DNA from: Antedon mediterranea
Lineage: Eukaryota > Animalia > Echinodermata
Reading direction: 5' to 3'
Assembly: GCF_964355755.1 (NCBI RefSeq)
Contig: NC_092673.1
Span: 26,595,648-26,659,647, forward strand
Length of the DNA: 64,000 nucleotides
Both the position numbers and the translations under genes were made by a program. The notes beneath the pieces were generated by a model, which saw only the letters and a program-made list of their open reading frames with translations, ran no database searches and had not been told where the DNA came from. The number at the start of each line of letters is the position of its first letter. Position 1 is the first letter of the stretch. Below are positions 2,100 through 50,200 of this stretch, one piece after another.

Positions 2100-5000
2100 A
2101 TGTTGCTGTTGTTAATTATATCGACGTTTTGTTGTTTGGAAGTAGTACACACACATCCAGAAAATCAAAAAATTGGCGGAGTGACGCAGGTAGGCACTAA
2201 CAACTATAATAAAGACAAAGCAATTGTCATATTTATTTCGCTAGTATTATTAGGCCTAAGGAGGCTAACCTACCTATCTAGACCTACCCAACTGTGCCGT
2301 CTAACTAGACCTTAGCCTATAGACAGGTAGTTGGTTGGGCCTTTCTAAGCCCTACACTTGAAGGTGGTTAGGCTTTTGAATACGTCACTAACATTAACAC
2401 AATCCCATCATAATCCTGTATACTTTTTTTTATGAACTGTCTAGTCTGTGTATGAATTACTAGTTTAGATTATAATAATATTGCTCTTTTTTAATATGGT
2501 ATATGGGTGATCCGCCTTTTAAAGTTTATGGTTAATAAGAAGTACATTATCACTTCAGTTAAATATTCATGATCTATGCTACTATCAATGTTATTACCTT
2601 ACAGGTTGAGCCACTGGTGACATTGGAAGAGAAGATCTGGGTAGCAGGCGATGCTGATGTATCCCACTATCGCATCCCATTACTAACATACACTCCAAAA
2701 AACAAAAATCTGCTGGCTATGGCCGAGGCCAGAAAATATGCAACGTCGGATGCTGGGTCAAAGTTTCTGGCAATCAGAAGGTCTAATGATGGAGGTAATT
2801 GCTGGTAACCAAATCAAGGGTCATCGTTTACCACTTAGTTGGACCAAGGCAATCTAACAACAGGACAATGAGCTCACTTTGCCAAGTTAGGAACTTGTAA
2901 CAGTCCTAATTTGATCTTATGTCTGACTGTGACAAATACCAACATACTGTACTATGTACGTATTCTCTGCAGCACACTGTGTCTGTTAAGGGGCATGGAA
3001 CTGATTTTGTAGCAGCCACAGATAAACCCTTTGATATCCAGAACTCAGCCTCCTGTTGTTAGATTGCCTTGGTTGGACTATATCTGAAAACTGCTTCAAA
3101 TCTATAACTTACTGATCTATGGATAAGAAGTGGATGAGTTTGTCTAAATAATTAATAAACTATTAAATTAATTTCTTAGGGTACAGTTGGAAGCCGCAAC
3201 AGTTCATTGAAAATGACGGATCAATATTCGACGGAATCAGCCTTGGTTCGGTCGTCGTCGATGATGAACTTGGTAATATTTTCATCGTGTTCAGCCGTTG
3301 TAATCATTACGAGAAGTGCAACATTTCTACACTGTATTACGTGAAGAGTACGGATGATGGTTACACGTGGAACAATCCCGTCAATATGTCGATGAGTATT
3401 GGTACCAAAGCATTCGCTGCTGGACCAGGGTCCGGTATTCAGGTGAATCATTAATAATCATCACTATAATGCACTGTTCTTAAAAACGTTGTGCTCTAAA
3501 GGCTTTCAAACCATGTGATTGATTGAACAAATGCATATTTCTGTTTTATTATAAAATCATATGCATTTTATTTGTGGGGGTGAAAACGTAACCTTATAAA
3601 GGTAAAATAATTCCATAGCTAGCATAGCTCCAGATCAGAGGTGGATGATCCATGGGGGCGTGCTACTCTAGATCTGTTGACAGCTAAAATTAAATTATGA
3701 ACTACTTTTTAATATTTTTGATACTGCTCTCCCATGTTAACAAATCCTGGATTCTCTTTAATAGATTTTATATCTTTTGTTTTAACAGTTAAAAAATAGT
3801 AAATATAACGGTCGTCTACTGGTATGCGGTCATGGGACGCTAGATGGTGATGGTATGTTTTGTCTTATTAGTGACGACCATGGTGATAACTGGCGGTACG
3901 GTGGTATGCTGAAGAGTATACCGTACAACACACCAAAGGTATCTGGTGATTTTATACCAGATGAATGCCAGGTAATAGTCGATATTTGTTTTACATCCTA
4001 GAAATGATAAAATTCAAATTAGGCCCTCTACGAATCCACAAAAGCCACAGTTCAGTGCCAACCATAAACGACAAAGGCTGAGATGTACCAGTACACACTG
4101 GGGTAACTCTCTAATCTGCAATGCAATGGGTTTACAAGTCAGAAATGTACACTATACCACACTCCACCAGAACAGTGCTTGTTGAGATGCTAGAACCAGT
4201 GCCAATTTTATGACTTTATTTTGCGGTGGCCATGCCTTAAACCATGTGACGATTTGATTAATATTATTCAAAAATTACCTAGTTAATTAACCCAACCCAT
4301 ATTTAGTATTTCCCATGTTTATTATACCGTAGCCAATAGAAATGCCTGACGGATCTGTAGTAGTCAACACCCGGAATCAAGGCCATTATCACTGTCATTG
4401 CCGGATTATTGCCAAAAGTACAGATGGTGGAGAGACATTCCCTATTGATGATGTGTACTTTGACTTGAACCTAATCGAACCTGCTGTTGCAGCAGGGGCA
4501 CTTTTCCATAATGGCGTAATGTACTTTACAAATCCAACATCTACTTCACATAGTGAGTATATATTAGACTTAAAGCAAGGCAATCTAACAACAGGACACT
4601 GAGCTCGCCTTGCCAAGACAGTATGTACATATTCTCTATGGGGGTATGGAACTTATCGTGTCACAGATAAACCCTTTGATCTCTGAACCTCAGCATCCTG
4701 TTACTATATTGCCATGTTTAAAACCATTCCCTTTGTATTACAGATAGTAAGTTGATTCTGTTTTTTTATGTAATTTGAATTGGCCTTTTTATAGTTATTA
4801 TTTTAAATCCTTTTTACTGTGAATAATGATTTTTAATAAATTATACCATTATGAATGAAATGGATGAATGAATATTTTAACATGAAAAAAAAAATCATTA
4901 AAATATGAAAAATATATACATTTTTTAAATTTTTTTAGGGGTGAACATGACTCTACATTGGAGCTATGATTTAGGTAAAACATGGAATAACAGCTTAAGC

Positions 5001-5138
5001 ATCTGGCCGAATCCCTCTGGTTACAGTACTATGACTACTATACCTGGACTAGATAACAGTATTTATATACTCTACGAAAAGGGACGAGTATCAACCTATG
5101 AAAGCCTTTCGTTTGTTAAAGTTGATTTACACCACTGA
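2100..5138 (+). CDS. NEU1: Sialidase-1 (lysosomal neuraminidase), 6 exons, about 381 aa
   Basis: Exons 2100-2189, 2605-2794, 3180-3442, 3789-3971, 4333-4552, 4939-5138 splice in frame. Hydrophobic signal peptide, YRIP motif, Asp-boxes (SNDGGYSW, STDDGYTW, SDDHGDNW, STDGGETF, SYDLGKTW), GPGSGIQ, PDECQP, SGYS and LYEKG motifs of NEU1. Confidence 0.93.
2845..3071. mobile_element. P-superfamily-like MITE (diverged second copy at 4576-4716)
   Basis: TIR CAAGGCAATCTAACAACAGGA / TCCTGTTGTTAGATTGCCTTG. 7-bp TSD GTTGGAC at 2838-2844 and 3072-3078. Confidence 0.75.
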
Positions 5139-5983
5139 TCACGCTTTAAACATCATTACCATTAAATCTAAGTCTTGACACCAAAAGCAATACTCCCTCT
5201 AAAATGAAATTATTAACTACATTTTGATATCAATTGTTGACAGATTATTAATACATGTAAATTAATGGATCCGCCCCTAGTGCATGGTGACAATACTATT
5301 TCAATGACCTATATATATATTGTGACATATTGGATAAATTACTTTAGCAACATACAGTATTTTATGATATAATTTTTTGATTTTAATTAATTTAAAAAAG
5401 TATTAACCAAGCTCTCATGGGCTTTAGTAATCTCTTAGAAACCGTCAACAAAATTTATGTTATGATTGTTATGAGTAAGAGATAACTAGATCGTCTGGTT
5501 ACAGTGCTCAATACCAGTTATATGCACACACTAAATTGTTGGAATGTAACTAGTACTGATAATACTAAACTGATGCTGATTTATAAAGGAATTTCTTTTT
5601 GTTTATATTCTATAAAATATTAATTAATTTCACTGTTTTAAATTATACAGTATTTGATATGAAAATAAATTGTTATGTATTCATATGTTGTATGTACTGT
5701 AAATGTAATATAAATAGTTTTAATGTACACAAAAAAATTAAAAGCTGCTGGCTGTAGTTGAAGCCAGAAAACGTTGGACGCTAGATAACATTTTCTGCCA
5801 ATCAGAAGGTCCAATGACTCAATTAGCTTATACAGTATTTTAAAAACATTGAACCTGTCCTAAACTGGACTCTTTAAAATTTCTTCCAAATGCACAGGGC
5901 CTCGCATTCATTATGGCATATTTATGGAATACCTTTTTTCAACCACTAGCATCTTCACAAATAACTTGCACTCCAGCACACTG

Positions 5984-8900
5984 CTAGATACAGCCATCTG
6001 CTATAGGGTTGGCATGAATTGTGATATCCGAGATGCAGACTTTCTCCAGAGGGCGATAGTTCTTTTCGTTCACTGGTAGCTTTTCAAGTTCATCTATTGT
6101 GTCTAGCCCATCTATTACCCTGCAAATGATTATGTGTGTGTTTAAACAACTGTTTTTTTTCCTACAGTTTCATTTACATACTCTTAATTAACTATATTTC
6201 AATAGTTTTCACAATTGGTATAAGTAAAGGGTCAATATATAGGTCCATTTGTATACAAAAAGTGCTGCATTTACTGCAGTAACCTTCAGCATGGATCCAG
6301 TTTTCCAAAACAGGTAAATTTCTGTGTTGTCAATGATTGTGGCTAAACTACAAAGACTTTTTCAAGAAACTAGATATAATAATATATGTCAGACCAGGAT
6401 CTGTTGATATGTCTAAATATATTTTTTTTAATACATGTACTCTTAAAACCACTTACTTTCCTATGATGGTGTACTTCATGTCCAAGTGAGGCTGTTTGGC
6501 GTACGTAATGAAGAACTGCGAGCCGTTTGTGTTTGGTCCGTTATTTGCCATCGACACGACACCTCGTACATTATGCTGTCAATTAGAAAATGTAATGTTA
6601 ATAGTGAAACATTTGGGACCTTTTGTACTATCCATGATACAGTATAATTTAATTTTAGGTATAGTGTAATTTTAGATAGTTTGGTTTCAGTTTAATTTGA
6701 TTGAGCTTGCAACGCTGTATTGAAAAAGGTCAAAATGAATGCACCAGTTAACTGACCTTTATACAAAGTCATTTTACCTTTATTGTATCTACAAATTCAT
6801 CCTCAAACTTTCGACCCCAAATGCTGACCCCTCCTTTGCCTGTACCACTGGGGTCACCTGTCTGCACCATAAACCCTTTTATGTTTCTACAAAAAGAGCA
6901 TAAAATTAAGGTTATAACATAAAAATACATTACCACAAATAATAGAACATAAGTTGACATTTGATCAATATATTTGCTTAAGTCAAAATAGTAAAGCAGA
7001 GCTTAAGTGAAAACAAGCTTTATTTATTAAACCAGATTTTATCTTGTAAGATATGGACTTCGGTATTCGGAATGTGTTTTTAATGGTAAAAAGAAATTTG
7101 GGACAGGTTGAAACTCGAGTTTGTCTTTATTATAAATAAACACACCAGCAGGTTTTACAGGCCTGCTCAGTCTTACCTGTGGAAGAGACATCCTTTATAA
7201 TATCCACTAGCTGACAATGCAAGGAAGTTTTCACATGCTCTTGGGACTTGCTCACAAAACAGTTCAATTTTGATATCACCAAGATCTGAATGTATAGTCA
7301 AAGACTGTGAAAGAAAAAAAAAGAAGTGACAGTTAATGATAAACTGTATGTATGCAATATATAGTCTACATATATATTTTGGCACACATGGAATTTTATA
7401 CATGTACTGTAATATAATTGGACAAAAAAAATGTACTGTAAAAATCAAAACACTGATGATGGTCATAAAGGAATATTAAAACAACTTGAGACCAAAACAA
7501 AAAGTAAACATTCAATCAACAATATCCGCATGATAGGTCAACTTGCAATGAAACTATAATTTACTGCATTATGCAAACAAAACAATTCGATCAATTTCAA
7601 AATATTTATTTGGTATTTTTTATATCAGTACTGTATAATCATATATTAATACTGTAAACAATGTAATATTGTATGTGTACAAACATTAATTACATAACTT
7701 TAATTCAGTTCTCTAAAATATTGTGCTCAAAGGCATAATTTCAAACCGTGTATTAATGGATGGAAATGTTATTTTGCACTTTGTGCCTTCCATACCTATA
7801 ATTGTACAATGCTATTTTGAGGTCACTATTGTTCATAAAAGTAAATTCATAGTCATCATTGATAATTAGGATACAATAGAATAAGTGTTCAGAGGCAGTT
7901 TTACTTTATAGTATAATTTGAAAAACTTTGTTGAATTAGAGTATTATTTTGAAATTTTTAATTAATCAAACTATTCTTGATTCTTCATTTTAATTAAAAC
8001 ATTTTTAGTTTTTTCATAAGCACCGAAGAAAATAGCGCCACCTATAGTTATCCACATAACTCTAGGTACTATTCCTGCATAAAGTCCTTTGAATCCGTTT
8101 GTATGCCAAACATCTTGAATAACGTAAAATATATTTCCATCAGCCGTCTTTGATCCTTGTTCAGCTAGCATGATTCTGGTTTTTGCAACATCAAGCGGAG
8201 TAGTGATTGCAGCAGAGATGCCTCCGGCGGTAGCGCCACACAACGCCGACTGGAAAGGATTAACATTTCCACTTTGCCGATCACTCCAAACTTTTTTTAA
8301 TAATTCCCATATCGGAAACTGAATAAAAGAAAATGGAATTTCCCTCAAAAGAAGACTAATATAGCCACGATAAAATCCATAAGATCCTTCCGATTTAAAC
8401 GTCTCTTTAAAGACAGCGACACTGTTGAGTTTAGGATTTGTCTGCGCTCGTTGTTTTACGACCTCTACCGGGTTACGTACCAGACAAGCGGTCATTTCTC
8501 CTACAGTAGCAGCTCCCATATGAACAAATGGCATATACGAATGTGATACATATTCAGAACCGAACTTCTTCGTAATTTCATAAGCACCAAAGAACAACCC
8601 AGCTGTTGGAGCAGACCCAAGTACAACGGGTAACAATCCTGAATATATGCCACGAAAACTGCCGGCTCGCAAAAATCCTTGGGAACTTTGGAGACGCGTT
8701 TTAAGGGTATCTAACGGAAAGAGTACAATATCCACTGACACACCAGCGCATCCTCCTGACGCTAGGGCAACCAAAAAGCCTGGCTCTAATCCACTCATCT
8801 TCTCTGAAAAATATAATGATGCCCATAATACTTTTAATTTTGTTGAGCGAGGAAAGTTTGACACAAATTTCCATAAGGAATTAATCCAAATTTGGTATGA

Positions 8901-10623
8901 ATGAAGGAATGAATTTCTTTCTTGATTGGTATTGTTCTTCATGAATAGTTATGTATGACGACTTCAGATCACAATTATCCATAATGCGTTGCAGAGTATT
9001 TCTATCCTTTAGATTGTATGCTTTGTTAGCATAACTGGTAGGCCTAAAAAGCCTTTTTGTTTTGGTATTGTCTGTCTGCTGTATGTCCATGTATAGTACA
9101 ATCTTCATTTTTTTGTGTGAAAATGTTTTATGGTATTGGTATACTGCTATTAATTATTATAATGAACGAAAAGAATCAAACTTGCAGATAAAAGCCCAAA
9201 AAAGAAAGAGAATAAAAACTGAAATATTATAAACCTGTATTAGATAAAAATGGATGAATTTATAGTGGGCTCTAGGCCTATTTATAAAAATAAAGTAAAA
9301 GAACATTTATTTAGGCCTACTAGGCCTAGGCTAAATTATTATATCAGTGTCTAAAAAAAAAAATAAAGTGCAAAACATTACTGATAAAAGTGTATTCCCT
9401 AGGCCCTAGTAATATCCACGTACGTACTGAACATTCCGGTTAGTCCCAGAGGACCCCAATCTAGTACGTACGTGCTTAGGCCTATCTATGCCTCCTCCTT
9501 TCTTGCTCAGCTGTCTTGTGATGGTGGCGCGCCCTAACTAAACTAGACTAGGCCTAGCGGCGCTAGTTCCGTTTCGCACCTGTCGTTTATTTCGACTCAA
9601 AATTGGTTAAGTAACTTTATCGTGAGTACCACACCTTAGAATTAGGCCTCAAAAATACTATTACGAAGGAGATCACACAAAAAGTAAAAAATAAATCCTT
9701 TAAATTGATGAATTTACAGACGTGTTTCTCGCACATCGGTTCGTGAATTTCGCATACTCTATGTTCAATGTTGTTGTTTCTATGGAGCGCCAAAAGAGCA
9801 ATCATAATAGAGGGTTAAATACTCAGTAAATTACGTATATTTAATGCATTAATTTTATTGATGAAAATTACGTTCAATTTTATCATATTTTGTCAATGTC
9901 AATGCAACAAAAATATTACTGTTGATACTGTACATGGTTTTTGCAGGAACTTTTAGGAATGAAAATCGACAAATTCATCATCATATTACATATACTGTAG
10001 TGTATTAATAATATTCCTCTTAGTCTTACTCTTAGGGAGGCGTAGGCCTAGGGTTGGTTGCTATTTGAAAACAGCAAATTATTAGCAGTAAAATGTTACA
10101 GCATTTTTATTGACAAAATATATTAAAATTAAACGTGTATTTCAATAATAAATGCAATAAAAGAAGACGCATTCCACTGAGTTTTTAACCATCTATTGTT
10201 GTTGCTCTTTTGGCGCTCCATAGAAACGAAAATATTGAACTTCGAGTATGCTAAATTCGCGAACGGTATGCGAGAAACATGTCTGTAAAATCATCAATTT
10301 AAGGATTTATTTGTTACTTTTTATGTGATTATTCTTAATAAAAGTACTTATGGGGCCCAATTTTAAGGTGTGGTATTCACAATAAGTTGCTTAACAATTT
10401 GGAGTCAAAAGGAAGTCGAAATAAAAACAGGTGCGAAACGGAACTAGCGCCGGCCTAGCTAGGAATAGTATGAAGCTTGGGCCTGGCTGGCCTAGACTTA
10501 CCGGTCATAGGCAGCCTAAATAAAATACATTTGCGCAAGATAAGAAGACCAGAGCAAAATACATGTTTTGGTATAAGTAACAGCACACATACAGAAATGT
10601 CAAAACAGTTTTTAACCTACCAT
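5984..10623 (-). CDS. PPIL3: Peptidyl-prolyl cis-trans isomerase-like 3 (cyclophilin), about 164 aa
   Basis: Exons 7304-7177, 6886-6778, 6575-6457, 6119-5984 encode [67 protein letters not shown]. The first of these lacks Met. The best ATG|gtaggt phase-0 donor is at 10623-10621, so the position of the first exon is inferred. Confidence 0.9.
7971..8798 (-). CDS. SLC25A26: Mitochondrial S-adenosylmethionine carrier, intronless ORF of 275 aa nested in PPIL3 intron 1
   Basis: Three mitochondrial-carrier signatures ([30 protein letters not shown]) plus [14 protein letters not shown] and [14 protein letters not shown] typical of SAMC. True start is probably Met49 of the listed ORF (8798), just after a polypyrimidine-CAG acceptor at 8806-8804. 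Confidence 0.93.
   Translation of the reverse strand: MSGLEPGFLVALASGGCAGVSVDIVLFPLDTLKTRLQSSQGFLRAGSFRGIYSGLLPVVLGSAPTAGLFFGAYEITKKFGSEYVSHSYMPFVHMGAATVGEMTACLVRNPVEVVKQRAQTNPKLNSVAVFKETFKSEGSYGFYRGYISLLLREIPFSFIQFPIWELLKKVWSDRQSGNVNPFQSALCGATAGGISAAITTPLDVAKTRIMLAEQGSKTADGNIFYVIQDVWHTNGFKGLYAGIVPRVMWITIGGAIFFGAYEKTKNVLIKMKNQE
9559..10451. mobile_element. Non-autonomous DNA transposon with long TIRs (Merlin-like)
   Basis: Imperfect TIRs of about 270 bp starting GGCGCTAGTTCCGTTTCGCACCTG. Exact 8-bp TSD GGCCTAGC at 9551-9558 and 10452-10459. GG termini with an 8-bp TSD fit Merlin. Confidence 0.78.
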
Positions 10624-11282
10624 TTCTTATCCACTTTATCCACTCTCTTTTCGTCAATCCACAAACATGTGTCGCGGTGGTCACGGTCACAGATAGATCT
10701 AAATTTGCTCAAACTCAATCAACCGTTACTTAACTTGAGGTATATTCTGAGTACGTAATATGTACCACAGTGCAGGTATATTATTCGGACCATCAAAATG
10801 AAGACAGGAACATGTTCATGGACATTGATTATTAACAACTTAGGGAGTTTTAAAGGAAGATTTGATTGGATAGTTTGAGGGAGAGCGTCATTTCGACGAT
10901 CGAGCATTCTCTACTCTCTATTTTTAGCATGTTAGAGCATGACGGATTAATGAATAAATAATATGATCAGAACTATGGAGCGCCAATCATTGTTTTGTCT
11001 AGTAACCTAAAGAAATTGCCTGTCGTACATGTTTACAACACTAAATGTTTAAAATTTCATTTCTTTAACTCTGACACTACAGGTTTCAAAATAAGATTTT
11101 TTATGTGGAAAGTCCTGCGTTGCAGTAAAAAGCCGATGGGATGGTAATTGTCTTTATCATTCAATATCCCGTATTTTTTTGTGTAATTATATTTTTCTAA
11201 TTAATAAAAGATTTTTTATTTTGTGTATGTACAGTACTTGTATCTGAATATTTGTTACTTGCAGCCAAGTATACCATCATTT

Positions 11283-12811
11283 TGAGTATATGGAACACAA
11301 TGCATTATACTGTAATAAGCAATGAGGCCGTTTTCCTATGTTAAAGCATTGTGTTCCTGTGGTATCATTTGGGTATATGGAACAAATGCATTATATATAA
11401 TGAATAAACCACAATACGAGGCCGTTTTCCTATGTTAAAGTATTGTGTTCCTGGGGTATCATTTTGGGTATATGGAACACAATGCATTATATATTCATTA
11501 TAACATAATGAATAAACCACTGTAGCAATGAGGCCGTTTTCCTATGTTAAAGTATTGTGTTCCTGGTGTATCATTTTGGGTATATGGAACACAATGCATT
11601 ATATAATTATAATGAATAAACCACTTCAATAAGCAATGAGACCGTTTTGCTATGTTATAGCATTGTGTTCCTGGGGTATCATTTTGGGTATATGGAACAC
11701 AATGCATTATATATGATGAATAAACCACTGTAATATGAGGCCGTTTTCCTATGTTAAAGCATTGTGTTCCTGGGGTATTATTTTGGGTATATATTCTTTA
11801 CTCCATGGTATATGGAACACAATGTATTATTTAAACCACTGTAATATGAGGCCGTTTTTCTATGTTAAAGCATTGTGTTCCTGGGGTATCATTTTGGGTA
11901 TATGGAACACAATGCATTATATAATTATAATGAATAAACCACTGTAATAAGCAATGAGGCCGTTTTCCTATGTTATAGCATTGTGTTCCTGGGGTATCAT
12001 TTTGGGTATATGGAACACAATGCATTATATATAATGAATAAACCACTGTAATATGAGGCCGTTTTCCTATGTTAAAGCATTGTGTTCCTGGGGTATCATT
12101 TTGGGTATATGGAACACAATGCATTATAGATAATATTACAGTGGTTTATTCATTATAATAATGCATTGTGTTCCATATACCCAACATAATACCCCAGGAA
12201 CACAATGCTTCAACATAGGAAAACGGCCTCATATTACAGTGGTTTATTCATCAATGCATTGTGTTCCATATACCCAAAATGATACTCCAGGAACACAATG
12301 CTTTAACATAGGAAAACGGCCTCATATTACAGTGGTTTATTCATCATAATAATGCATTGTGTTCCATATACCCAAAATGATACCCCAGGAACACAATGCT
12401 TTAACATAGGAAAACGGCCTCATATTACAGTGGTTTATTCATCATATATAATGCATTGTGTTCCATATACCCAAAATGATACCCCAGGAACACAATGCTT
12501 TAACATAGGAAAACGGCCTCATTGCTTATTACAGTAGCTTATTCATTATATATAATGCATTGTGTTCCATATACCCAAAATGATACCCCAGGAACACAAT
12601 ACTTTAACATAGGAAAACGGTCTCATTGTTTATTACAGTGGTGTATTCATTATATATAATGCATTGTGTTCCATATACCCAAAATGATACCCCAGGAACA
12701 CAATACTTTAACGAGGAAAACGGCCTCATTGCTTATTGAAGTGGTTTATTTATCATATAATGCATTGTGTTCCATATACCCAAAATGATACCCCAGGAAC
12801 ACAATACTTTA
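11283..12811. repeat. About 95-105-bp tandem repeat that switches orientation near 12130
   Basis: Unit AATAAACCACTGTAATATGAGGCCGTTTTCCTATGTTAAAGCATTGTGTTCCTGGGGTATCATTTTGGGTATATGGAACACAATGCATTAT runs to about 12127; its reverse complement runs from about 12133. Confidence 0.92.
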
Positions 12812-13006
12812 ATTTTGCTATGGTTAGGCCTACTTAATTTTACTTAATCTTTATTAATACAAATATATTGATTTCCAAAGTGGTTCACAAAAGTTCTACA
12901 AAACTAAATGAAAATGATACACATTAATAAAACGCAAATTCAAGAAATGTTTCTACACTTCATACAAAAGAAAACTTTTAGAGGAAATCATGGAAGTGAA
13001 TTGGAT

Positions 13007-16384: not shown

Positions 16385-16830
16385 CCAATACAGTACACTG
16401 CTGTAAGTCAGAGGGCACCTCTATGTGTTCTACTCAATCCAATACAGTACACTGCTGTAAGTCAGAGGGCATCTCTATGTGTTCTACTCAATCCAATACA
16501 GTACACTGCTGTAAGTCAGAGGGCATCTCTATGTGTTCTAATCAATCCAATACAGTACACTGCTGTAAGTCAGAGGGCACCTCTTTGTGTTCTACTCAAT
16601 CCAATACAGTACACTGCTGTAAGTCAGAGGGCATCTCTTTGTGTTCTACCCAATCCAATACAGTACACTGCTGTAAGTCAGAGGGCATCTCTATGTGTTC
16701 TACCCAATCCAATACAGTACACTGCTGTATGTCAAAGGACATCTCTATGTGTTCTACTCAATCCAATACAGTACACTGCTGTTAGTTAGAGGACATCTCT
16801 TTGCATACTACTCAATCTAATACAGTAAAG
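16385..16830. repeat. 54-bp minisatellite, about 8 copies, in the probable GABBR1 3' UTR
   Basis: Unit CCAATACAGTACACTGCTGTAAGTCAGAGGGCATCTCTATGTGTTCTACTCAAT. Confidence 0.92.
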
Positions 16831-17211: not shown

Positions 17212-20200
17212 TCACAAATATGTCTCTGAAAACTCTTCGTCTGAACCATGTGGTGCGTTAATTTTGACTCCTACATTGGTAACAACTGTCCCACTGTTTG
17301 TGTAAGTTGAAATAAAGGCACTATCTTCAAAAGATATTCGTCCTGGAGAAATTTTACCTGGTGCCAAACGGCTACTAGATGATCTAAACCGTGCTTGGCT
17401 CCTCTCTTCACTGTCTGCTAAAGTTTTTTCTCTTGTTTTCTTTTCAATACATTCCAGTAAATGTCGTATATGTGCTTCTTTCTTTAAAAACAAATCAACA
17501 ATTTGATTAAAAAAACAACTTTGTAAAACATTTCAAACTAATAAAGTTTCATATTGTTTGAAGGTTTGCATAGCGAAATCAAATGTTGATATAAAGTTTT
17601 TGGTATACCCCGTATATTATTTCTGAAAAAAACTATAGTATTGAGTTTCTCAACGTTTTAATCAATATGCTTTGATCGTCCTCAGAAAGTGGTTTTATTA
17701 TTTTTATACAGGTCAGGACATTTTCAGGACCTAAAAAAGTGTCCCTTATTGGCGTCCCCTGAAATGAAAAGATAAATATTAAATATTACCTCTGCTATCT
17801 GTCTTTTTATTCCTTCATTTTCCGAAGTTAACTTAATTTGTTTTTCTGTATCTTCTTTGGTGGGTAAATGTTGTAGATACGCTTTATTATATTCTCCAGA
17901 TGGGTTCTTCTTTAAGTAAAGAATCTGTCAAGAAAATTCAAATACAAAACATTTATGTAAACTAGTTAATTTTGAATGGCAGATGGATTAGTACAGCCAG
18001 CATTTAGCATTCTTGTAAGAATCAATTGTTTTGAATATTCCAATTCCATTTTTTTTGTACTGATGAAAATTCAATTACTGAGAGTCACATTAGATTAATT
18101 AATACGCAGAGACATCCATCTTTTAAAAATGTATTCAGTATAGACACTCCAAATGCCACAGAAGTTCTTATACTTATTACAACGCCCAAATTCCATCAAA
18201 ACTCTTGCACAAAAGTGAACACATTAGGCGCAGGAGCCCCGGATAGCGTTACGAAGTCGTTAACTCTGTCAGCCCATGGTCAACCCAACTAATGTGTTTT
18301 TCCCAAGGACAACTTATCAATAACTAAACTTTGTCACCACCCATAAGTGTGCTGTTCATTTCCTATTGACCAATGAACACCAATGTAACTGGACCTGAGT
18401 TTCTTGCTATTCGACCTTGGGTGCAAATTATACAATTAATTGATGTTAAGGCCACTGACTACTCTTTTCTGTATAGAAACACTGAATTGACTGAATAATA
18501 AGAAAACCCTACAATAATTTCTACTACTACTTGATATGGTGTTATACAAGAACTATATTAAAAGAATTGAATGTATGGAGAATGAAAAGTTAAACGTTAT
18601 AACTTATGTAAAACATCACTTAGATGATATCTATCAGATATATCATTTTCTAAAAATTGTTTCATTAGTTAAAATAGATCACGGAAAACCAATACCAATA
18701 CTGATCTGGACTCGGAAATTCAAAATGTAGCAGGCAACGTTTCACCAATGAAAACTTTCAAGACAAACAAAGTATCATAATTATCATGATATCCATTTTT
18801 ATTTAATAACGATAAATGGATATAAATATTTCGTCTTTTTTGTTATTTTGTGATGGAAAATATATTGAGTGAACATTGGCACTGAGTTTAAATGTTCCCC
18901 GTCCCCTTAATGTCCGCTTTATAGGAGTGTCCCCTCAGTAAAGATTTGCTGTTTTCCCATTTAATAATAAATTATGATGTCCATCTTATCCTCTCAATTT
19001 TAATGTGCTACACCCGATAATAGAATACACATCTAGCTCATGTGTACTTAAAGAACCTAGTACATCTTTCGAGACGAGTGGGGGGTTATCCCGGTGTATT
19101 AGTACATCACAGCCACTGATCACCAACTGGGCCCTCTGGGAGACCAGTCTTTGACTGAAGAGGTTACCCAGTATAAATATATATTCAATTCAATTCAATA
19201 GAATAACTGTACAGTAGGCTCCCATTTGATGCAATGTGTTACCCAATGTGCTCAATTTGATTGTGCTACCCAAATCCATGCTATCCATTTGAAATAATTT
19301 GCTATCCATTTGAAAGAATGTGCTACCCGATAATCCCTATAGAATAATGTACAGTACAATTATATCCATTTGATTGTGCTACCTAATGTGCTATCCATTT
19401 GAAAGAATGTGCTATCCATTTGAAAGAATGTGCTACCCGATAATCCGTATAAAATAATGTACAGTACTATATCCATTTGATTGTGCTACCTAATGTGCTA
19501 TCCATTTGAAAGAATGTGCTACCCGATAATCCTTATAGAATAATGTACAGTACTATATCCATTTGGCTGTGCTACCTAATGTGCTATCCATTTGAAAGAA
19601 TGTGCTACCCGATAATCCGTAGGCTATAGAATAATGTACAGTACAATTATATCCATTTGATTGTGCTACATAATGTGCTATCCATTTGAAATAATGTGCT
19701 ACCCGATAATCCTTATAGAATAATGTACAGTACTATATTCATTTGATTGTGCTACCCAATGTGCTATCCATTTGAAATAATGTGCTATCCATTTGAAATA
19801 ATATGCTATTTGAAAGAATGTGCTACCTGATAATCCGTATAGAATAATGTACAGTACAATTACATCCATTTGATTGTGCTACCTAATGTGCTATCCATTT
19901 GAAATAATGTGCTATCCATTTGAAAGAATGTGCTATCCATTTGAAAGAATGTGCTACCCGATAATCCGTATAGAATAATGTACAGTACAGTACTATATCC
20001 ATTTGATTGTGCTACCCAATGTGCTATCCATTTGAAAGAATGTGCTATCCATTTGAAAGAATGTGCTACCCGATAATCCGTATAAAATAATGTACAGTAC
20101 TATATCCATTTGATTGTGCTACCTAATGTGCTATCCATTTGAAAGAATGTGCTACCCGATAATCCTTATAGAATAATGTACAGTACTATATCCATTTGGC

Positions 20201-44200: not shown

Positions 44201-47200
44201 AAGTTTTCATAATTGAATTGAAAATTTGTTTACCTCACAGAATACTTTGCGCGCCATTCCAACATAGAATACGCCAACAATGATTCTCGCGTCTTCCCGA
44301 AAAAGATCATCAACAGCGTTGTCGGGGTCGGTTAGAAAACTTTGACGGCTTACAATCTCAATGTTAGCTTTCTTTGCTCTTTTCTCTAAATCCTCAATTG
44401 TCTTAGAAAAAAAAATATTTGAAACATTAAACATTTGTTTTGTTGTATTTTGTACAAAAAAATACAAAATTCAACTACTTACAAGGAAAAAAACTCATTA
44501 ATGACTAATTTGTAAAAATTGAGATTTATTGTAATTTATGACCCTGTAACTTATTAACGTATATATTGAAAACTGGTGAAAACCCATTAATTTAAAGAAA
44601 TAAATGAGTGAAGAAACTCATTAATTATCTATGAGTATTTTATTCAAATTTCTATGAATGAAATCTGATATTATCCCGTTAAAGTGAGATTTATTTTGAC
44701 CTGGTTCATTTCCTGCTCACTTGTTGACAAGGTAATTGAAATACTCCTAACTACGCATTTCAAATCACAGGTATTAACGTAAATTGTACAAACGAGGCAG
44801 TGAGTGAAACACTGGTTAATCATGCTTCCAGGATTTAAACATAAATGGATGATGTCGATATGATGGCGTTACGTTTAAACTGACACTAGAAATGACCTAC
44901 AACTCGATTCTTTCTTTTTTCAAAAACATGAAGCAAGCAACATTCTGTCCGTGAGCAATGACATTATTTAATGAAACCAAATAGATTGAAATGCCTATAA
45001 AATAGTACATGTGATAACATTACATGCATTCAAGCATTAAATACAAAAGTAGATGGTTTTATGGAAAATTGTTTCAACCTTGCTATAGTTTTTATTAAAA
45101 AGAATATCAGATTGTTTGTAGTAAATGATAGGTAATTAAAGCTGCTATAGGCTTATTGTGAGTGGATGTAAATGTAATCATAATCACAAAATTGTTTTAA
45201 CTGAGGCTGACTAAATTCCACTCCATTAATTCTTTTAGCTATATAGATTCTTCTAAATAATTTCAGGCCATTCTGAAGACATCTCCAACTGAAGAGCACT
45301 TAAACTAAAGACTGCCCCACCTCCAACTGAAGATCACTCAAACTAAGACCATCCCACCTCCAACTGAAGACCACTCAAACTAAGACCATCCCACCTCCAA
45401 CTGAAGACCACTCAAACTAAGACCATCCCACCTCCAACTGAAGACCACTTAAACTAAGACCATCCCACCTCCAACTGAAGACCACTCAAACTAAGACCAT
45501 CCCACCTCCAACTGAAGACCACTCAAACTAAGACCATCCCACCTCCAACTGAAGACCACTTAAACTAAGACTATCCCACCTCCAACTGAAGACCACTCAA
45601 ACTAAGACCATCCCACCTCCAACTGAAGACCACTCAAACTAAGACCATACCACCTCCAACTGAAGACCACTTAAACTAAGACCATCCCACCTCCAACTGA
45701 AGACCACTCAAACTAAGACCAACCCACCTCCAACTGAAGACCACTCAAACTAAGACCAACCCACCTCCAACTGAAGACCACTTAAACTAAGACCAACCCA
45801 CCTCCAACTGAAGACCACTCAAACTAAGACCATCCCACCTCCATCTGAAGACCACTCAAACTAAGACCATCCCATCTCCAACTGAAGACCACTTAAACTA
45901 AGTGTGAGCAATGACATTATTTAATGAAACCAAATATATTGAAATGCCTATAAAATAGTACATGTGATAACATTACATGCATTCAAGCATTAAATACAAA
46001 AGTAGATGGTTTTATGGAAAATTGTTTCAACCTTGCTATAGTTTTTATTAAAAAGAATATCAGATTGTTTGTAGTAAATGATAGGTAATTAAAGCTGATA
46101 TAGGCCTATTGTGAGTGGATGTAAATGTAATCATAATCACAAAATTGTTTTAACTGAGGCTGACTAAATTCCACTCCAACTAATTCTTTTAGCTATATAG
46201 ATTCTTCTAAATAATTTCAGGCCATTCTAACTGAAGACATCTCCAACTGAAGAGCACTTAAACTAAAGACTGCCCCACCTCCAACTGAAGACCACTCAAA
46301 CTAAGACCATCCCACCTCCAACTGAAGACCACTCAAACTAAGACCATCCCACCTCCAACTGAAGACCACTCAAACTAAGATCATCCCACCTCCAACTGAA
46401 GACCACTTAAACTAAGACCATCCCACCTCCAACTGAAGACCACTTAAACTAAGACCATCCCACCTCCAACTGAAGACCACTCAAACTAAGACATTTCCCA
46501 CCTCCAACTGAAGACCACTTAAGCTAAGACCATCCCACCTCCAACTGAAGACCACTTAAACTAAGACCATCCCATCTCCAACTGAAGACCACTTAAACTA
46601 AGACCATCCCACCTCCAACTGAAGACCACTCAAACTAAGACCATCCCACCTCCAACTGAAGACCACTTAAACTAAGACCATCCCACCTCCAACTGAAGAC
46701 CACTTAAACTAAGACCATCCCACCTCCAACTGAAGACCACTCAAACTAAGACATTTCCCACCTCCAACTGAAGACCACTTAAACTAAGACCATCCCACCT
46801 CCAACTGAAGACCACTTAAACTAAGACCATCCCACCTCCAACTGAAGACCACTTAAACTAAGACCATCCCACCTCCAACTGAAGACCACTCAAACTAAGA
46901 CCATCCCACCTCCAACTGAAGACCACTTAAACTAAGACCATCCCACCTCCAACTGAAGACCACTTAAACTAAGACCATCCCACCTCCAACTGAAGACCAC
47001 TCAAACTAAGACCATCCCACCTCCAACTGAAGACCACTTAAACTAAGACCATCCCATCTCCAACTGAAGACCACTTAAACTAAGACCATCCCATCTCCAA
47101 CTGAAGACCACTTAAACTAAGACCATCCCACCTCCAACTGAAGACCACTCAAACTAAGACCATCCCACCTCCAACTGAAGACCACTTAAACTAAGACATT

Positions 47201-50200
47201 TCCCACCTCCAACTGAAGACCACTTAAACTAAGACCATCCCACCTCCAACTGAAGACCATTTAAACTAAGACCATCCCACCTCCAACTGAAGACCACTTA
47301 AACTAAGGGCATCCCACCTCCAGCTTGTCATAGGTTACAAAATAAAACACAAAGAACATGTTTTACATAGAAGTCAGCCTTGACTTGCTTTTGATATAAA
47401 AGAGTAATACGAAACAAATATACTTTTTATACATAATGTATAACATTTTCATGTGCATTTGTGACATACTTTTTAAGAGCTATTTGCAGTAATAAGAGTT
47501 TGTAATGTACCCAGATAAAATGAGACATAATAACAATATGTTCCTTCATCTAATGGCATATGCAGTTTATACTAAAAAATAATGTAGGTAATATTTGTTT
47601 GATCATTTGATCATGGTTTACAGAGAATTGATGAAAGATAATAAATGTTTTTAAATGATTTTTTTTTAACTTGAACATTGGGAAATTATTATCTACAAAA
47701 TGACTTTAAAATGTCAATAAAGAAAACATATACTATAAAGTTGAAACAAATAAATTGTTCAACAATTTTTCTTTCTATTACCACCAAAAATGTATGTTCC
47801 TATAGCAACCATTAAATGTTGTTTTACATTAGTAAAGCAATTTTGTAGATGATTTGAGATTAGATATCAATTATTCTACTTCAGTTACTCAAATAACTAT
47901 ATTTTTTTACTATTTGAACTTGGTTCCAAATTGTCCAATCACAGTGTGATGTATTCTCCAAACTGTTGCTTGTGATTGGTCCCAACTCACTTCTATTGTA
48001 CTGTACTTATGTCATTGCCCAGGGTCTAAGTGAGAACCATGGAGAAATAAGTTCATTTCCCCCTGTGAGAACCAAACTTGAGTTTGTTTAAACTATCAGT
48101 CACTGCAACAAATAGTGTGTGGCCAAAAAAATTTTTATTGCATTAACATATTCAAGAAAAACAAAACTGATTATATTACTGGAGTAGCTGCAGTAAAATA
48201 GTTTTGACATGGTTCCTTACTGAAGTAAAAACCTCTTGGGTTTCTTGTAATACTGCTATTTTCTTCCAATTAAACTCTTGACACAATTTGATTCTTGCAG
48301 GATTGTTGAGGGTTGCTGAAGGATGAGTTCGGAAAAATGTCGGGAATCTTTGACGGTTAGACAAAGCTGGAGAACTTGAACCATATGAGACCTGTAGAAA
48401 TAATCATACAATTTATTCACAAGTTTATTCAGGTATTAATACAAAACATTCAGCATGATGAGATACAATAACACAATTCAACAAAAGCAAATAATATAGA
48501 TTGATTGATTGATTGATTTTTAAAATGTTATTTCTAATTTTAGGCTGTATGTCAAAACTACAATTGTAGTTTTTTACTCGTGGCGGAGGTTGAAAATCTC
48601 TAATTGTTCTTGGTAGTATCTTCTTTAATCTACAAAACATAACTAAATTATTATTAAATCCAACAAATTTCTTGAATTTTCCATTTAATTGCTGCTGGTA
48701 TCGTGGACTTAAATCTTACAGTTAATTTAAACTACTACTGTATATGTTTTTTTAAATTTATTACGGTATATATAAAATTACAAAAACAATAGCACATGGC
48801 TAATAACGTTTGTATTACAATAAAAAATATTGAAATGAAATCTATAAAAATACAAGAACTTTATTGAACATTACAATCATCTTCATCAGTCTATTTGACA
48901 GAACACATTTTCTAAAAGTACAGTACCTTCCGAATTGCTATAACTTTAAAAAAACATCTAAATCAGCATCATGAAAATGACCTTTCATCAACCTCAATTA
49001 GATGGACTGTAAACATGTAGTTAGTACAATTGATATAGTAACAACCTATTACAGTATACTTGAAAGCGTATGCATTGAATTAGCAACCTTGTATTATGCC
49101 AATTTATAATACAAAGTAGATGATTTTATGGAAATTGTTTACACCTTGGTTGTGTATTTTTAAAAGAAAATTACAATATTACTTTAAGATTTTCTTTCTG
49201 TAGTAGCAGCAAATGGGTTTCTAGATTGCCAATTAAGTTGATAGATTGTCAGTAGCTATAATATGAAAATATTTATTATAAAATCAAAATACAATCAACA
49301 TTGAATACAAAGAAGAGAAGTTTTTTTTTTAGAACCAGTACATTTTCGCACATGCAGCATCAATATCAATATAACAAATACAAACTAGTTGACATCAGGA
49401 AGCTAAGCTGATTGGTCAGAAGTTTTTCCAGATGTTCAATATTGATTGGTCAGATGTCGATGCCTTACTCTGACGTACAGACCAGAATTAAAATAAATAT
49501 CCTTAAAGTTCAGACACAAAGGGAAGCATTTACATTACAACTGAAGATTTGGCTATGTGTACAAAGACATCCGTCAATACTTAAAAGCCATTGACCATAT
49601 ATTGTGGAATATTCCTTAGCCACCATTAAAACTCTCATAAATCCCAAACTAAGCTTCAGCATCAGCAACTCATAATTCGTATCTTCTAACTAATTCAGAT
49701 TGTACAAACGTCTAACTCTTGGGACCAATATCTCTAAATTGTTTTTATTCACAGGAGAAAAGTTACCATATCCTGTTGTTTTAAACCGTAAGAGTTTGAA
49801 GAAAAACTCATTTATTTCCGTAACTATCAGCAGGATATCTAGGCTGGTATTTTCAAATGCAAATGAATATCATCATTACACAGAAAAATGAAACATTAAC
49901 TCTACTAGAATAACTAAACTAGTTTTATATTCTTCGTAAACAGCAAATAGGCCTACTTTTATTGAGATTCAGAAAGTCAGGAAGCGGACATCGGCAAACC
50001 TTATTTTGCCTTGCACCTGCATTCCACTTGGACACACGACGACATACACCAAACTCAAGTGAGTCGATCAAGGGACAGCTTAAGTGGTCTATTGTGATTG
50101 CTTGCACTTACAGTACATCTAGTTTTGTCCAAGTGGAAACCAAAGTGTTACATCTACAGTATACAAAACCTATTGTATTTTTAGCTATTCAACATTATAT

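What the first reader, a model, noticed from the sequence alone, without database searches (positions are those of the whole stretch)
5984..10720. One promoter, two unrelated proteins: intronless SLC25A26 nested in PPIL3 intron 1, selected by phase-matched alternative donors
Seen in sequence: PPIL3 exon 2 (starts 7304) has no Met and needs a phase-0 ATG. ATG|gtaggt at 10623-10621 supplies it (M-SLTIH..). A second donor 119 nt further along, ATGACCG|gtaagt (10508-10502), is phase 1. It joins the acceptor before SLC25A26 (exon starts 8803) in frame, giving ATG ACC G|AG AAG ATG AGT = MTEKMSG... The cross-pairing of the PPIL3 donor with the SLC25A26 acceptor gives ATG AGA AGA TGA, a three-codon uORF whose stop overlaps the SLC25A26 ATG (ATGA). 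Reading through the first donor gives another tiny uORF (MVG*). Established: vertebrate SLC25A26 is multi-exonic and unlinked to PPIL3. Inference: a retrocopy captured the PPIL3 promoter, so splice and poly(A) choice toggles between a spliceosome-associated cyclophilin and the mitochondrial SAM importer. A SAM- or m6A-sensitive switch is conceivable but speculative.
Basis: partly seen in the sequence, partly recalled or inferred. Interest (0 to 1): 0.85.

Follow-up and report, generated by a model that had tools for sequence, protein, structure and literature searches.

The report
Echinoderm-wide nested gene sharing first exon
In this feather star, the intronless gene for the mitochondrial SAM importer (SLC25A26) sits inside the first intron of an unrelated cyclophilin gene (PPIL3) and is spliced from the exon that ends in the cyclophilin's likely start codon; annotation records suggest that all five echinoderm classes keep this pairing, so one splice choice likely decides which protein is made.

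Summary
An intact, intronless SLC25A26 ORF (8798-7971) lies in PPIL3 intron 1. ATG 10623-10621 plus four exons reproduces the RefSeq Antedon mediterranea PPIL3 exactly. The one RNA-like run joins donor 10621, PPIL3's own, to the SLC25A26 acceptor 8803, with no joint at donor 10502. So it is one donor with two acceptors. The carrier mRNA opens with an M-R-R-stop uORF whose stop overlaps the carrier ATG 8 nt downstream. The PPIL3 junction itself was not seen in RNA and rests on the RefSeq model.

New here: the pair shares a scaffold in 12 of 12 echinoderm species, covering all five classes, against 0 of 17 outgroup comparisons. RefSeq files the two proteins as isoforms with near-consecutive accessions in 7 species. 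Echinoderm carriers form one clade.

The kind is known (CPNE1/RBM12, cha-1/unc-17); my searches did not find this pair in print. The carrier acceptor matches the METTL16 nonamer at 8 of 9 positions in a weak hairpin; a SAM-sensing switch is only a lead.

The parts
10621..10650 (-). Shared first exon, 3' part. It ends in the PPIL3 initiator ATG (10623-10621) and donor GTAGGT. True 5' end and TSS unknown.
   Evidence: 30 nt carried by the X1 contig spliced to 8803; ATG needed to reproduce P0131
10496..10508 (-). Second, strong donor (CCG|GTAAGT, last exon base 10502) with an ATG in frame with SLC25A26. Not seen used.
   Evidence: rank 6 of 7263 GT sites; an X1 contig runs through it unspliced and no joint is listed
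9551..10459 (.). Polymorphic 893-bp non-coding inverted-repeat transposon (9559-10451) with about 350-bp arms and an 8-bp target-site duplication, inside intron 1
   Evidence: empty-site joint 9550>10452 in X1 and in a contig of X2
8795..8803 (-). SLC25A26 acceptor (exon starts 8803) and the rest of the M-R-R-stop uORF; its TGA overlaps the carrier ATG
   Evidence: sequence; joint 8803-10621 GT..AG
8800..8808 (-). 8-of-9 match to the METTL16/METT-10 nonamer across the acceptor, with the acceptor A in the loop of a weak hairpin. Lead only.
7971..8798 (-). Intronless SLC25A26 (mitochondrial SAM carrier) CDS, 275 aa plus stop
   Evidence: PF00153 x3; best named hit Anneissia SAMC, 72%; tree
7605..7970 (-). 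SLC25A26 3' UTR with candidate poly(A) signals ATTAAA (7704) and AATAAA (7610)
   Evidence: motif scan; X1 contig covers 8803-7670; cleavage site not determined
7177..7304 (-). PPIL3 exon 2 (competing distal acceptor at 7304)
   Evidence: 100% to P0131; joint 7177>6886 in X1
6778..6886 (-). PPIL3 exon 3
6457..6575 (-). PPIL3 exon 4
5984..6119 (-). PPIL3 exon 5, coding part with stop

Best explanation
An intronless SLC25A26 gene lies in PPIL3 intron 1 and is spliced from PPIL3's ATG-ending first exon; it is likely an old retrocopy that landed there in the echinoderm ancestor, and the single donor at 10621 likely chooses between its acceptor (8803) and PPIL3 exon 2 (7304). Shown: the nesting, the 10621>8803 junction, and that ATG 10623 plus four exons equals the annotated PPIL3. 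Inferred: (1) using 8803 consumes the only donor seen in use, so that transcript can no longer make PPIL3 and normally ends at the carrier's poly(A) site; skipping to 7304 removes the whole carrier gene as a 3.3-kb intron. (2) On the carrier mRNA the host ATG becomes an out-of-frame uORF (M-R-R-stop) only 8 nt upstream of the carrier ATG, which has A at -3. Close spacing and the ATGA stop-start overlap would let ribosomes reach the carrier ATG by leaky or oscillating scanning or by reinitiation, so the uORF dampens rather than blocks carrier synthesis. (3) Carrier transcripts that miss their poly(A) site would run into PPIL3 exons 2-5 with spliced introns behind the carrier stop and would be NMD substrates. 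(4) The parental intron-bearing copy was probably lost, which would lock an essential mitochondrial gene to the PPIL3 promoter.
For: X1 joint 8803-10621, GT..AG, contig depth 24.9; 1 of the 2 joints listed for 7110-10870. Contigs of X2, X4 and X5 run unbroken across 8803. The contig carries exactly 30 nt of exon 1, and adjacent X1 contigs overlap by 30 nt (6548-6577, 6782-6811), which is what a graph fork right after the ATG would give (inference). The spliced PPIL3 model equals P0131, 'isoform X2 [Antedon mediterranea]'. Same longest-contig length for both proteins in 12 of 12 echinoderm species (2 crinoids, 1 ophiuroid, 4 asteroids, 4 echinoids, 1 holothuroid) against 0 of 17 outgroup comparisons (16 species, including 2 hemichordates and 2 amphioxus). 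SAMC and PPIL3 are isoforms with accessions 1-2 apart in Anneissia, Amphiura, Patiria, Acanthaster, L. variegatus, A. rubens and A. amurensis. Accessions are adjacent in the GenBank annotation of Holothuria leucospilota. PPIL3 is labelled X2/X3 in Apostichopus and S. purpuratus. Echinoderm carriers form one clade, SH-aLRT 97, quick tree. The intron after codon 1 of PPIL3 looks older than the insertion: 27 of 152 stored proteins P0131-P0282 join other N-termini exactly before residue 2, including vertebrates, amphioxus and a tick. Human SLC25A26 has coding introns (PMC4667130, passages). Inhibition by an out-of-frame uAUG falls as it nears the main AUG, and more so if that AUG has strong context (PMC9743702, section 9).
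Against: The 10621>7304 junction was not among X1's joints, and the X1 contig over exon 2 continues unspliced to 7628. The PPIL3 branch therefore rests on the RefSeq model and on the fork inference. There is only one RNA-like run, kept as contigs, and its RNA status is the tool's guess (its two GT..AG joints support it). Conservation is by proxy (scaffold length, accession, isoform label); no second genome was read, so intronlessness, the shared donor and the uORF are not shown outside this species. In 3 of the 12 species (L. pictus, D. antillarum, D. setosum) the RefSeq names carry no isoform link, and for D. setosum the carrier retrieved is a divergent paralogue. Loss of the parent rests on the best 120 of 1844 hits, a list that also missed the S. 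purpuratus and Apostichopus carriers. Nothing about translation was measured.
Confidence: 0.78

Rival explanations
1. One reading: donor 10621 serves PPIL3 and donor 10502 serves SLC25A26 (MTEKMSG start); the cross-pairing is a by-product.
For: Donor 10502 is near-perfect (rank 6 of 7263, against 104 for 10621) and has an in-frame ATG 7 nt upstream. Two transcripts encode the same carrier in L. pictus and in A. amurensis, so 5' variants exist there.
Against: X1 shows 10621>8803 and no 10502 joint, and a low-depth contig crosses 10502 unspliced. No MTEK-extended protein is in P0001's cluster (1 member). From a start upstream of 10623, four out-of-frame ATGs precede 10508. Contigs drop rare forms, so a minor isoform is not excluded.
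Confidence: 0.08
2. PPIL3 is made mostly without exon 1, from an internal start in the carrier's 3' region or from read-through bicistronic RNA, using an in-frame ATG at 7403 or 7466. Exon 1 would then belong to SLC25A26 alone.
For: An X1 contig covers 7628-7177 unspliced at 7304 yet spliced to exon 3. The frame upstream of exon 2 is stop-free for about 57 codons (1.4% of 5000 shuffles) and holds two in-frame ATGs.
Against: RefSeq PPIL3 of this species starts M-SLTIH and needs an ATG|GT donor; 10623 is the nearest of 3 candidates between 7305 and 20000. Most echinoderm PPIL3 models are 164 aa with that start. X1 carries a 2-nt insertion at 7417 that breaks the frame of the 7466 ATG. Retained intron 1 or missed poly(A) also explains the contig.
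Confidence: 0.07
3. The two genes are neighbours or nested across echinoderms, but exon sharing is incidental read-through or lineage-specific; in other classes the carrier has its own promoter or shares only a non-coding exon.
For: No isoform link in 3 of 12 species, all echinoids. RefSeq grouping does not say which splice site is shared (rule recalled).
Against: Isoform grouping in 7 species of four classes, plus X2/X3 labels in 3 more. In this species the carrier contig is spliced directly to the ATG exon.
Confidence: 0.07

Closest known systems
Human/mouse/zebrafish CPNE1-RBM12 and the 24 promoter-sharing pairs of Yang et al. 2008 (PMC2568002; read abstract, text parts 1 and 4, search passages)
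   Same: Unrelated proteins from one promoter and shared 5' exons. RBM12's CDS lies in a single exon. The choice is proposed to rest on splicing plus poly(A), and the arrangement is conserved.
   Different: There the shared exons are non-coding. Here the shared exon ends in the host's initiator ATG, which becomes an overlapping uORF on the guest mRNA. The guest is a housekeeping transporter, and the linkage spans a whole invertebrate phylum. ITGA1/PELO in the same table may also share a host-ATG exon (recalled, not checked), so this feature may not be unique.
Cholinergic locus cha-1/unc-17 (ChAT/VAChT) (PMC3875643, one passage of section 10)
   Same: A transporter gene lies in the first intron of an enzyme gene, and both share the first exon.
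   Different: That exon is untranslated and the two products act in one pathway. No functional link between PPIL3 and SLC25A26 is known to me, and unc-17 has three exons of its own.
C. elegans sams-3/4/5 3' splice-site m6A switch by METT-10/METTL16 (PMC8208822, passages)
   Same: A SAM-handling gene whose acceptor AG sits in a nonamer-like sequence, with the A predicted unpaired in a loop.
   Different: One mismatch to the strict nonamer, a hairpin no more stable than shuffles, and no methylation evidence. The target would be the importer, not the synthetase.
Orphan retrogenes (recalled; one search listing only)
   Same: An intronless copy at a new locus, with the parent apparently missing.
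   Different: Loss of the parent is not shown here.

Membership tests
First-exon/promoter-sharing nested gene pair (CPNE1-RBM12, cha-1/unc-17 type) | Two unrelated coding sequences on one strand, guest inside a host intron | tested here: met
   PF00153 ORF 8798-7971 lies between the PPIL3 ATG exon and exon 2
First-exon/promoter-sharing nested gene pair (CPNE1-RBM12, cha-1/unc-17 type) | Guest mRNA spliced from the host's first exon | tested here: met
   joint 10621>8803 in X1
First-exon/promoter-sharing nested gene pair (CPNE1-RBM12, cha-1/unc-17 type) | Host mRNA spliced from the same exon | tested here: inconclusive
   joint 10621>7304 not listed in X1; the model equals RefSeq P0131
First-exon/promoter-sharing nested gene pair (CPNE1-RBM12, cha-1/unc-17 type) | Shared exon is non-coding (true of the two named pairs, not required of the wider kind) | tested here: not met
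   the shared exon supplies PPIL3's Met1; this is the variant feature
First-exon/promoter-sharing nested gene pair (CPNE1-RBM12, cha-1/unc-17 type) | One transcription start and co-expression | not testable with these tools
   contigs cannot show starts; no CAGE or raw reads were offered
Retrogene that replaced its parent | Intronless intact CDS whose orthologues have coding introns | tested here: met
   single ORF; human c.33+1 splice mutation and exons 2 and 4; invertebrate outgroup gene structures not seen
Retrogene that replaced its parent | Moved from the ancestral locus | tested here: met
   by proxy: linked to PPIL3 in 12 of 12 echinoderms and 0 of 17 outgroup comparisons
Retrogene that replaced its parent | Parental spliced copy absent | tested here: inconclusive
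   no second crinoid copy among the best 120 of 1844 hits; no genome held
SLC25A26 / SAMC orthologues | Three carrier repeats with PX[DE]XX[KR]X[KR] motifs, and grouping with SAMC | tested here: met
SLC25A26 / SAMC orthologues | SAM/SAH exchange activity | not testable with these tools
   needs a proteoliposome assay or yeast pet8 complementation
METTL16/METT-10 3' splice-site m6A target | Nonamer consensus across the acceptor | tested here: not met
   one mismatch at position 2; 12 of 821 acceptor-like sites in the window match as well or better
METTL16/METT-10 3' splice-site m6A target | Motif in the loop of a stem-loop | tested here: inconclusive
   acceptor A unpaired (p 0.96) with flanks paired, but z 0.0 to 0.7 against shuffles in 4 of 4 windows
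METTL16/METT-10 3' splice-site m6A target | SAM-dependent methylation that changes splicing | not testable with these tools
   needs an in vitro METTL16 assay and m6A mapping

The most novel reading that the evidence does not exclude
The locus is a phylum-wide SAM-sensing switch. When cytosolic SAM is high or low, METTL16 changes the m6A state of the SLC25A26 acceptor A, steering the single donor between the mitochondrial SAM importer and the spliceosomal cyclophilin PPIL3, while the host-ATG uORF sets a second, translational dial. This would couple nuclear-mitochondrial methyl partitioning to one splice choice conserved since the echinoderm ancestor.
Probability: 0.06. Interest if true: 0.9.

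Novelty: new variant of a known kind. Interest (0 to 1): 0.58.

Why it matters
If the proxy evidence holds, this is a rare genomic change that marks Echinodermata: an essential mitochondrial carrier kept inside another gene's first intron since before the five classes split (roughly 480-500 million years, recalled). It shows how a retrocopy can take over a host exon that already carries a start codon, by placing its own ATG within the short range where AUGs compete. It is directly testable in sea urchin and sea star embryos. In practice, RefSeq merges the two genes into one locus in many echinoderms, so gene-level RNA-seq counts, knock-down reagents and orthology calls for PPIL3 and SLC25A26 are likely confounded in these model animals.

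Tried and rejected
No whole genome is held, so no tBLASTn for a parent copy beyond the window, where there is one copy. No run is on record as RNA; X1 is a guess. X1 has no listed cover at 7629-7669, 10598-10620 or above 10650; these holes were not used as evidence for ends or starts. The metagenome scan gave 80 loci, none echinoderm-like among the 30 printed and 0 of 80 with a PPIL3 hit. The bacterial promoter scan is not applicable. Five substitutions in the carrier CDS (3 synonymous, 2 missense, from a cut table) are too few to show selection. Trans-splicing was considered and rejected, since the 30 upstream letters map to 10650-10621. A fused SAMC-PPIL3 protein was considered for P0003 and P0123; both are doubled carriers. 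Longer fusion forms were not searched with the carrier as query. A 14-nt micro-exon at 10515-10502 was considered; no RNA support. The METTL16-like motif leaves no trace in the 55 residues upstream of one ophiuroid-like carrier ORF (P0275), a weak point against conservation. The careful tree did not finish; the quick tree is reported. Literature: SLC25A26+PPIL3 gave 2 expression-list papers; some searches gave 1 unrelated, 0 and 0; the PELO/ITGA1 search gave nothing relevant among 10 listed of 44; the EMBO J paper on worm sams splicing was not held. Earlier-findings look-ups were empty.
Full report
Observation. A 275-codon ORF at 8798-7971 has three mitochondrial-carrier repeats; its best named relative is the Anneissia japonica SAM carrier at 72%. 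ATG 10623-10621 joined to exons 7304-7177, 6886-6778, 6575-6457 and 6119-5984 gives a 164-aa protein identical to P0131, named 'PPIL3 isoform X2 [Antedon mediterranea]'. The window is thus crinoid, and the carrier lies wholly inside PPIL3's first intron. The second donor at 10502, the MTEK frame, the MRR-stop and MVG-stop uORFs are all as stated.

What the RNA says. Five runs hold the stretch; none is on record as RNA, and X1 is guessed to be RNA. I laid 4 of the 5, then X1 alone. X1 behaves like RNA: it joins 7177 to 6886 at GT..AG ends, whereas contigs of X2, X4 and X5 run unbroken from 7075 to about 9550. In 7110-10870, X1 has 2 listed joints. One is 10621>8803 (GT..AG, one contig, depth 24.9); the other is the empty site of an intronic transposon. 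No joint uses 10502, and a low-depth contig crosses it unspliced. In agreement, the collection's protein for this gene starts MSGLEP and is alone in its cluster. Contigs drop rare forms, and donor 10502 is among the strongest in the window (6th of 7263 GT sites under a recalled matrix), so a minor 10502 isoform remains possible.

The weak point. The 10621>7304 junction is not listed in X1, and the contig over exon 2 runs on unspliced to 7628 while being spliced to exon 3. Two things keep me with a shared donor. The RefSeq protein needs an ATG|GT exon end, and 10623 is the nearest of 3 candidates up to 20000 and the one shown to act as a donor. Also, the carrier contig begins exactly 30 nt upstream of the junction, the overlap seen between adjacent X1 contigs, as a fork right after the ATG would give. 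A 60-nt junction path is then easily pruned by the assembler (behaviour recalled, inference). The unspliced contig may be retained intron 1 or carrier transcripts that missed their poly(A) site; an internal PPIL3 start is the rival.

Conservation. Taking the longest-contig length shown for each protein as a scaffold tag, the carrier and PPIL3 share a scaffold in 12 of 12 echinoderm species for which both were retrieved, spanning crinoids, ophiuroids, asteroids, echinoids and holothuroids. They share one in 0 of 17 outgroup comparisons (16 species, with Ptychodera, Glandiceps and two Branchiostoma) (tally). RefSeq names them as isoforms with near-consecutive accessions: Anneissia XP_033110114/115, Amphiura XP_072014525/526, Patiria XP_038063993/995, Acanthaster XP_022085246/247, L. 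variegatus XP_041482172/174, A. rubens XP_033643345/346, A. amurensis XP_071801794-5/796. Holothuria leucospilota has KAJ8032851/850 from a GenBank annotation. PPIL3 is X2 in Apostichopus and X3 in S. purpuratus, whose carriers I did not retrieve. RefSeq groups models into one gene when they share splice sites or coding frame (recalled), which points to a shared exon. Against: L. pictus, D. antillarum and D. setosum show no isoform link. These are proxies; I read no second genome.

Origin. In a 49-row quick tree the echinoderm carriers, with six unnamed rows of which two cluster with Asterias and Holothuria records, form one branch (SH-aLRT 97) sorted by class, apart from hemichordates and chordates; the root is a midpoint and the careful search did not finish. 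The intron after PPIL3's first codon appears much older: 27 of the 152 stored proteins P0131-P0282 replace Met1 by other N-termini joined exactly before residue 2, in vertebrates, amphioxus, a tick and echinoderms. Human SLC25A26 has coding introns (PMC4667130, passages) and lies at 3p14.1 (PMC11091378, passages). The simplest history is one retroposition into this old intron in the echinoderm stem, probably with loss of the parent; no second crinoid copy is among the best 120 of 1844 hits, but that list is incomplete.

Mechanism. One donor, two acceptors. The proximal acceptor is the weaker (12 of 20 pyrimidines against 18 of 20), as expected if both are to be used (inference). Splicing to 8803 commits the transcript to the carrier; candidate poly(A) signals lie at 7704 and 7610. 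The host ATG then sits 8 nt before the carrier ATG, out of frame, and its three-codon uORF stops on ATGA. In yeast reporters, inhibition by an out-of-frame uAUG shrinks as it approaches a strong-context AUG, and AUG competition fades beyond about 17 nt (PMC9743702, abstract and section 9); uORFs that stop before the main ATG were excluded there, so reinitiation is a separate, untested route. The carrier exchanges cytosolic SAM for matrix SAH (PMC7226361, passages).

The SAM-switch idea. The carrier acceptor matches the METTL16 nonamer at 8 of 9 positions with the acceptor A at the methylated position, as in worm SAM synthetase genes (PMC8208822, passages), and that A is predicted unpaired in a loop. 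But METTL16's requirement is described as strict, 12 of 821 acceptor-like sites in the window match as well or better, and the hairpin is no more stable than shuffles. It fails membership and is kept as a 6% lead. Table S3 of that paper, which lists the mutants tested, was not read and may bear on whether this mismatch is tolerated.

Comparison and verdict. It works like CPNE1/RBM12 (PMC2568002, abstract, parts 1 and 4, passages) and cha-1/unc-17 (PMC3875643, one passage). It differs from those two in that the shared exon ends in the host's start codon, in joining genes with no known common pathway, and in apparently marking a whole phylum. I found no report of the pair, within a library that lacks most subscription journals. 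New variant of a known kind; interest 0.58.

Noticed in passing
window 9559-10451: Non-coding 893-bp element with about 350-bp inverted arms (79% alike, the first 25 bp perfect) and an 8-bp target-site duplication; present in the window, absent in contigs of X1 and X2, very high-copy in the DNA-like runs. It sits 50 bp behind donor 10502, a natural allele pair for testing effects on the splice choice.
   Followed up: partly
window 2563-5139 (+) and 5300-6577: A sialidase-like gene (BNR repeats below the curated cut-off) converges on PPIL3. An X1 contig of depth 535 runs unspliced over PPIL3 exons 4-5 and intron 4, probably its long 3' UTR overlapping PPIL3 antisense; contigs do not show strand.
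   Followed up: partly
P0123, P0124 (Diadema): Echinoids appear to carry a second, fast-evolving carrier paralogue in tandem (branch 1.26; a 551-aa fused model with the accession next to a PPIL3 model). This may explain PPIL3 being isoform X3 in some species, with three products from one first exon.
   Followed up: partly
window 7305-7475 (-): The frame upstream of PPIL3 exon 2 is stop-free for about 57 codons, with in-frame ATGs at 7466 and 7403; X1 has a 2-nt insertion between them.
   Followed up: partly
window 10515-10502 (-): AG-flanked 14-nt stretch ending at the strong donor 10502: a possible micro-exon or alternative first-exon end; its inclusion after the ATG exon would shift the frame of both proteins. 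No RNA support.
   Followed up: partly
window 11309-12812, 16385-16827, 19255-19989, 45283-47322: Tandem arrays with units of about 104, 54, 21-127 and 37 bp; the 104-bp array begins about 650 bp upstream of the shared exon.
   Followed up: no
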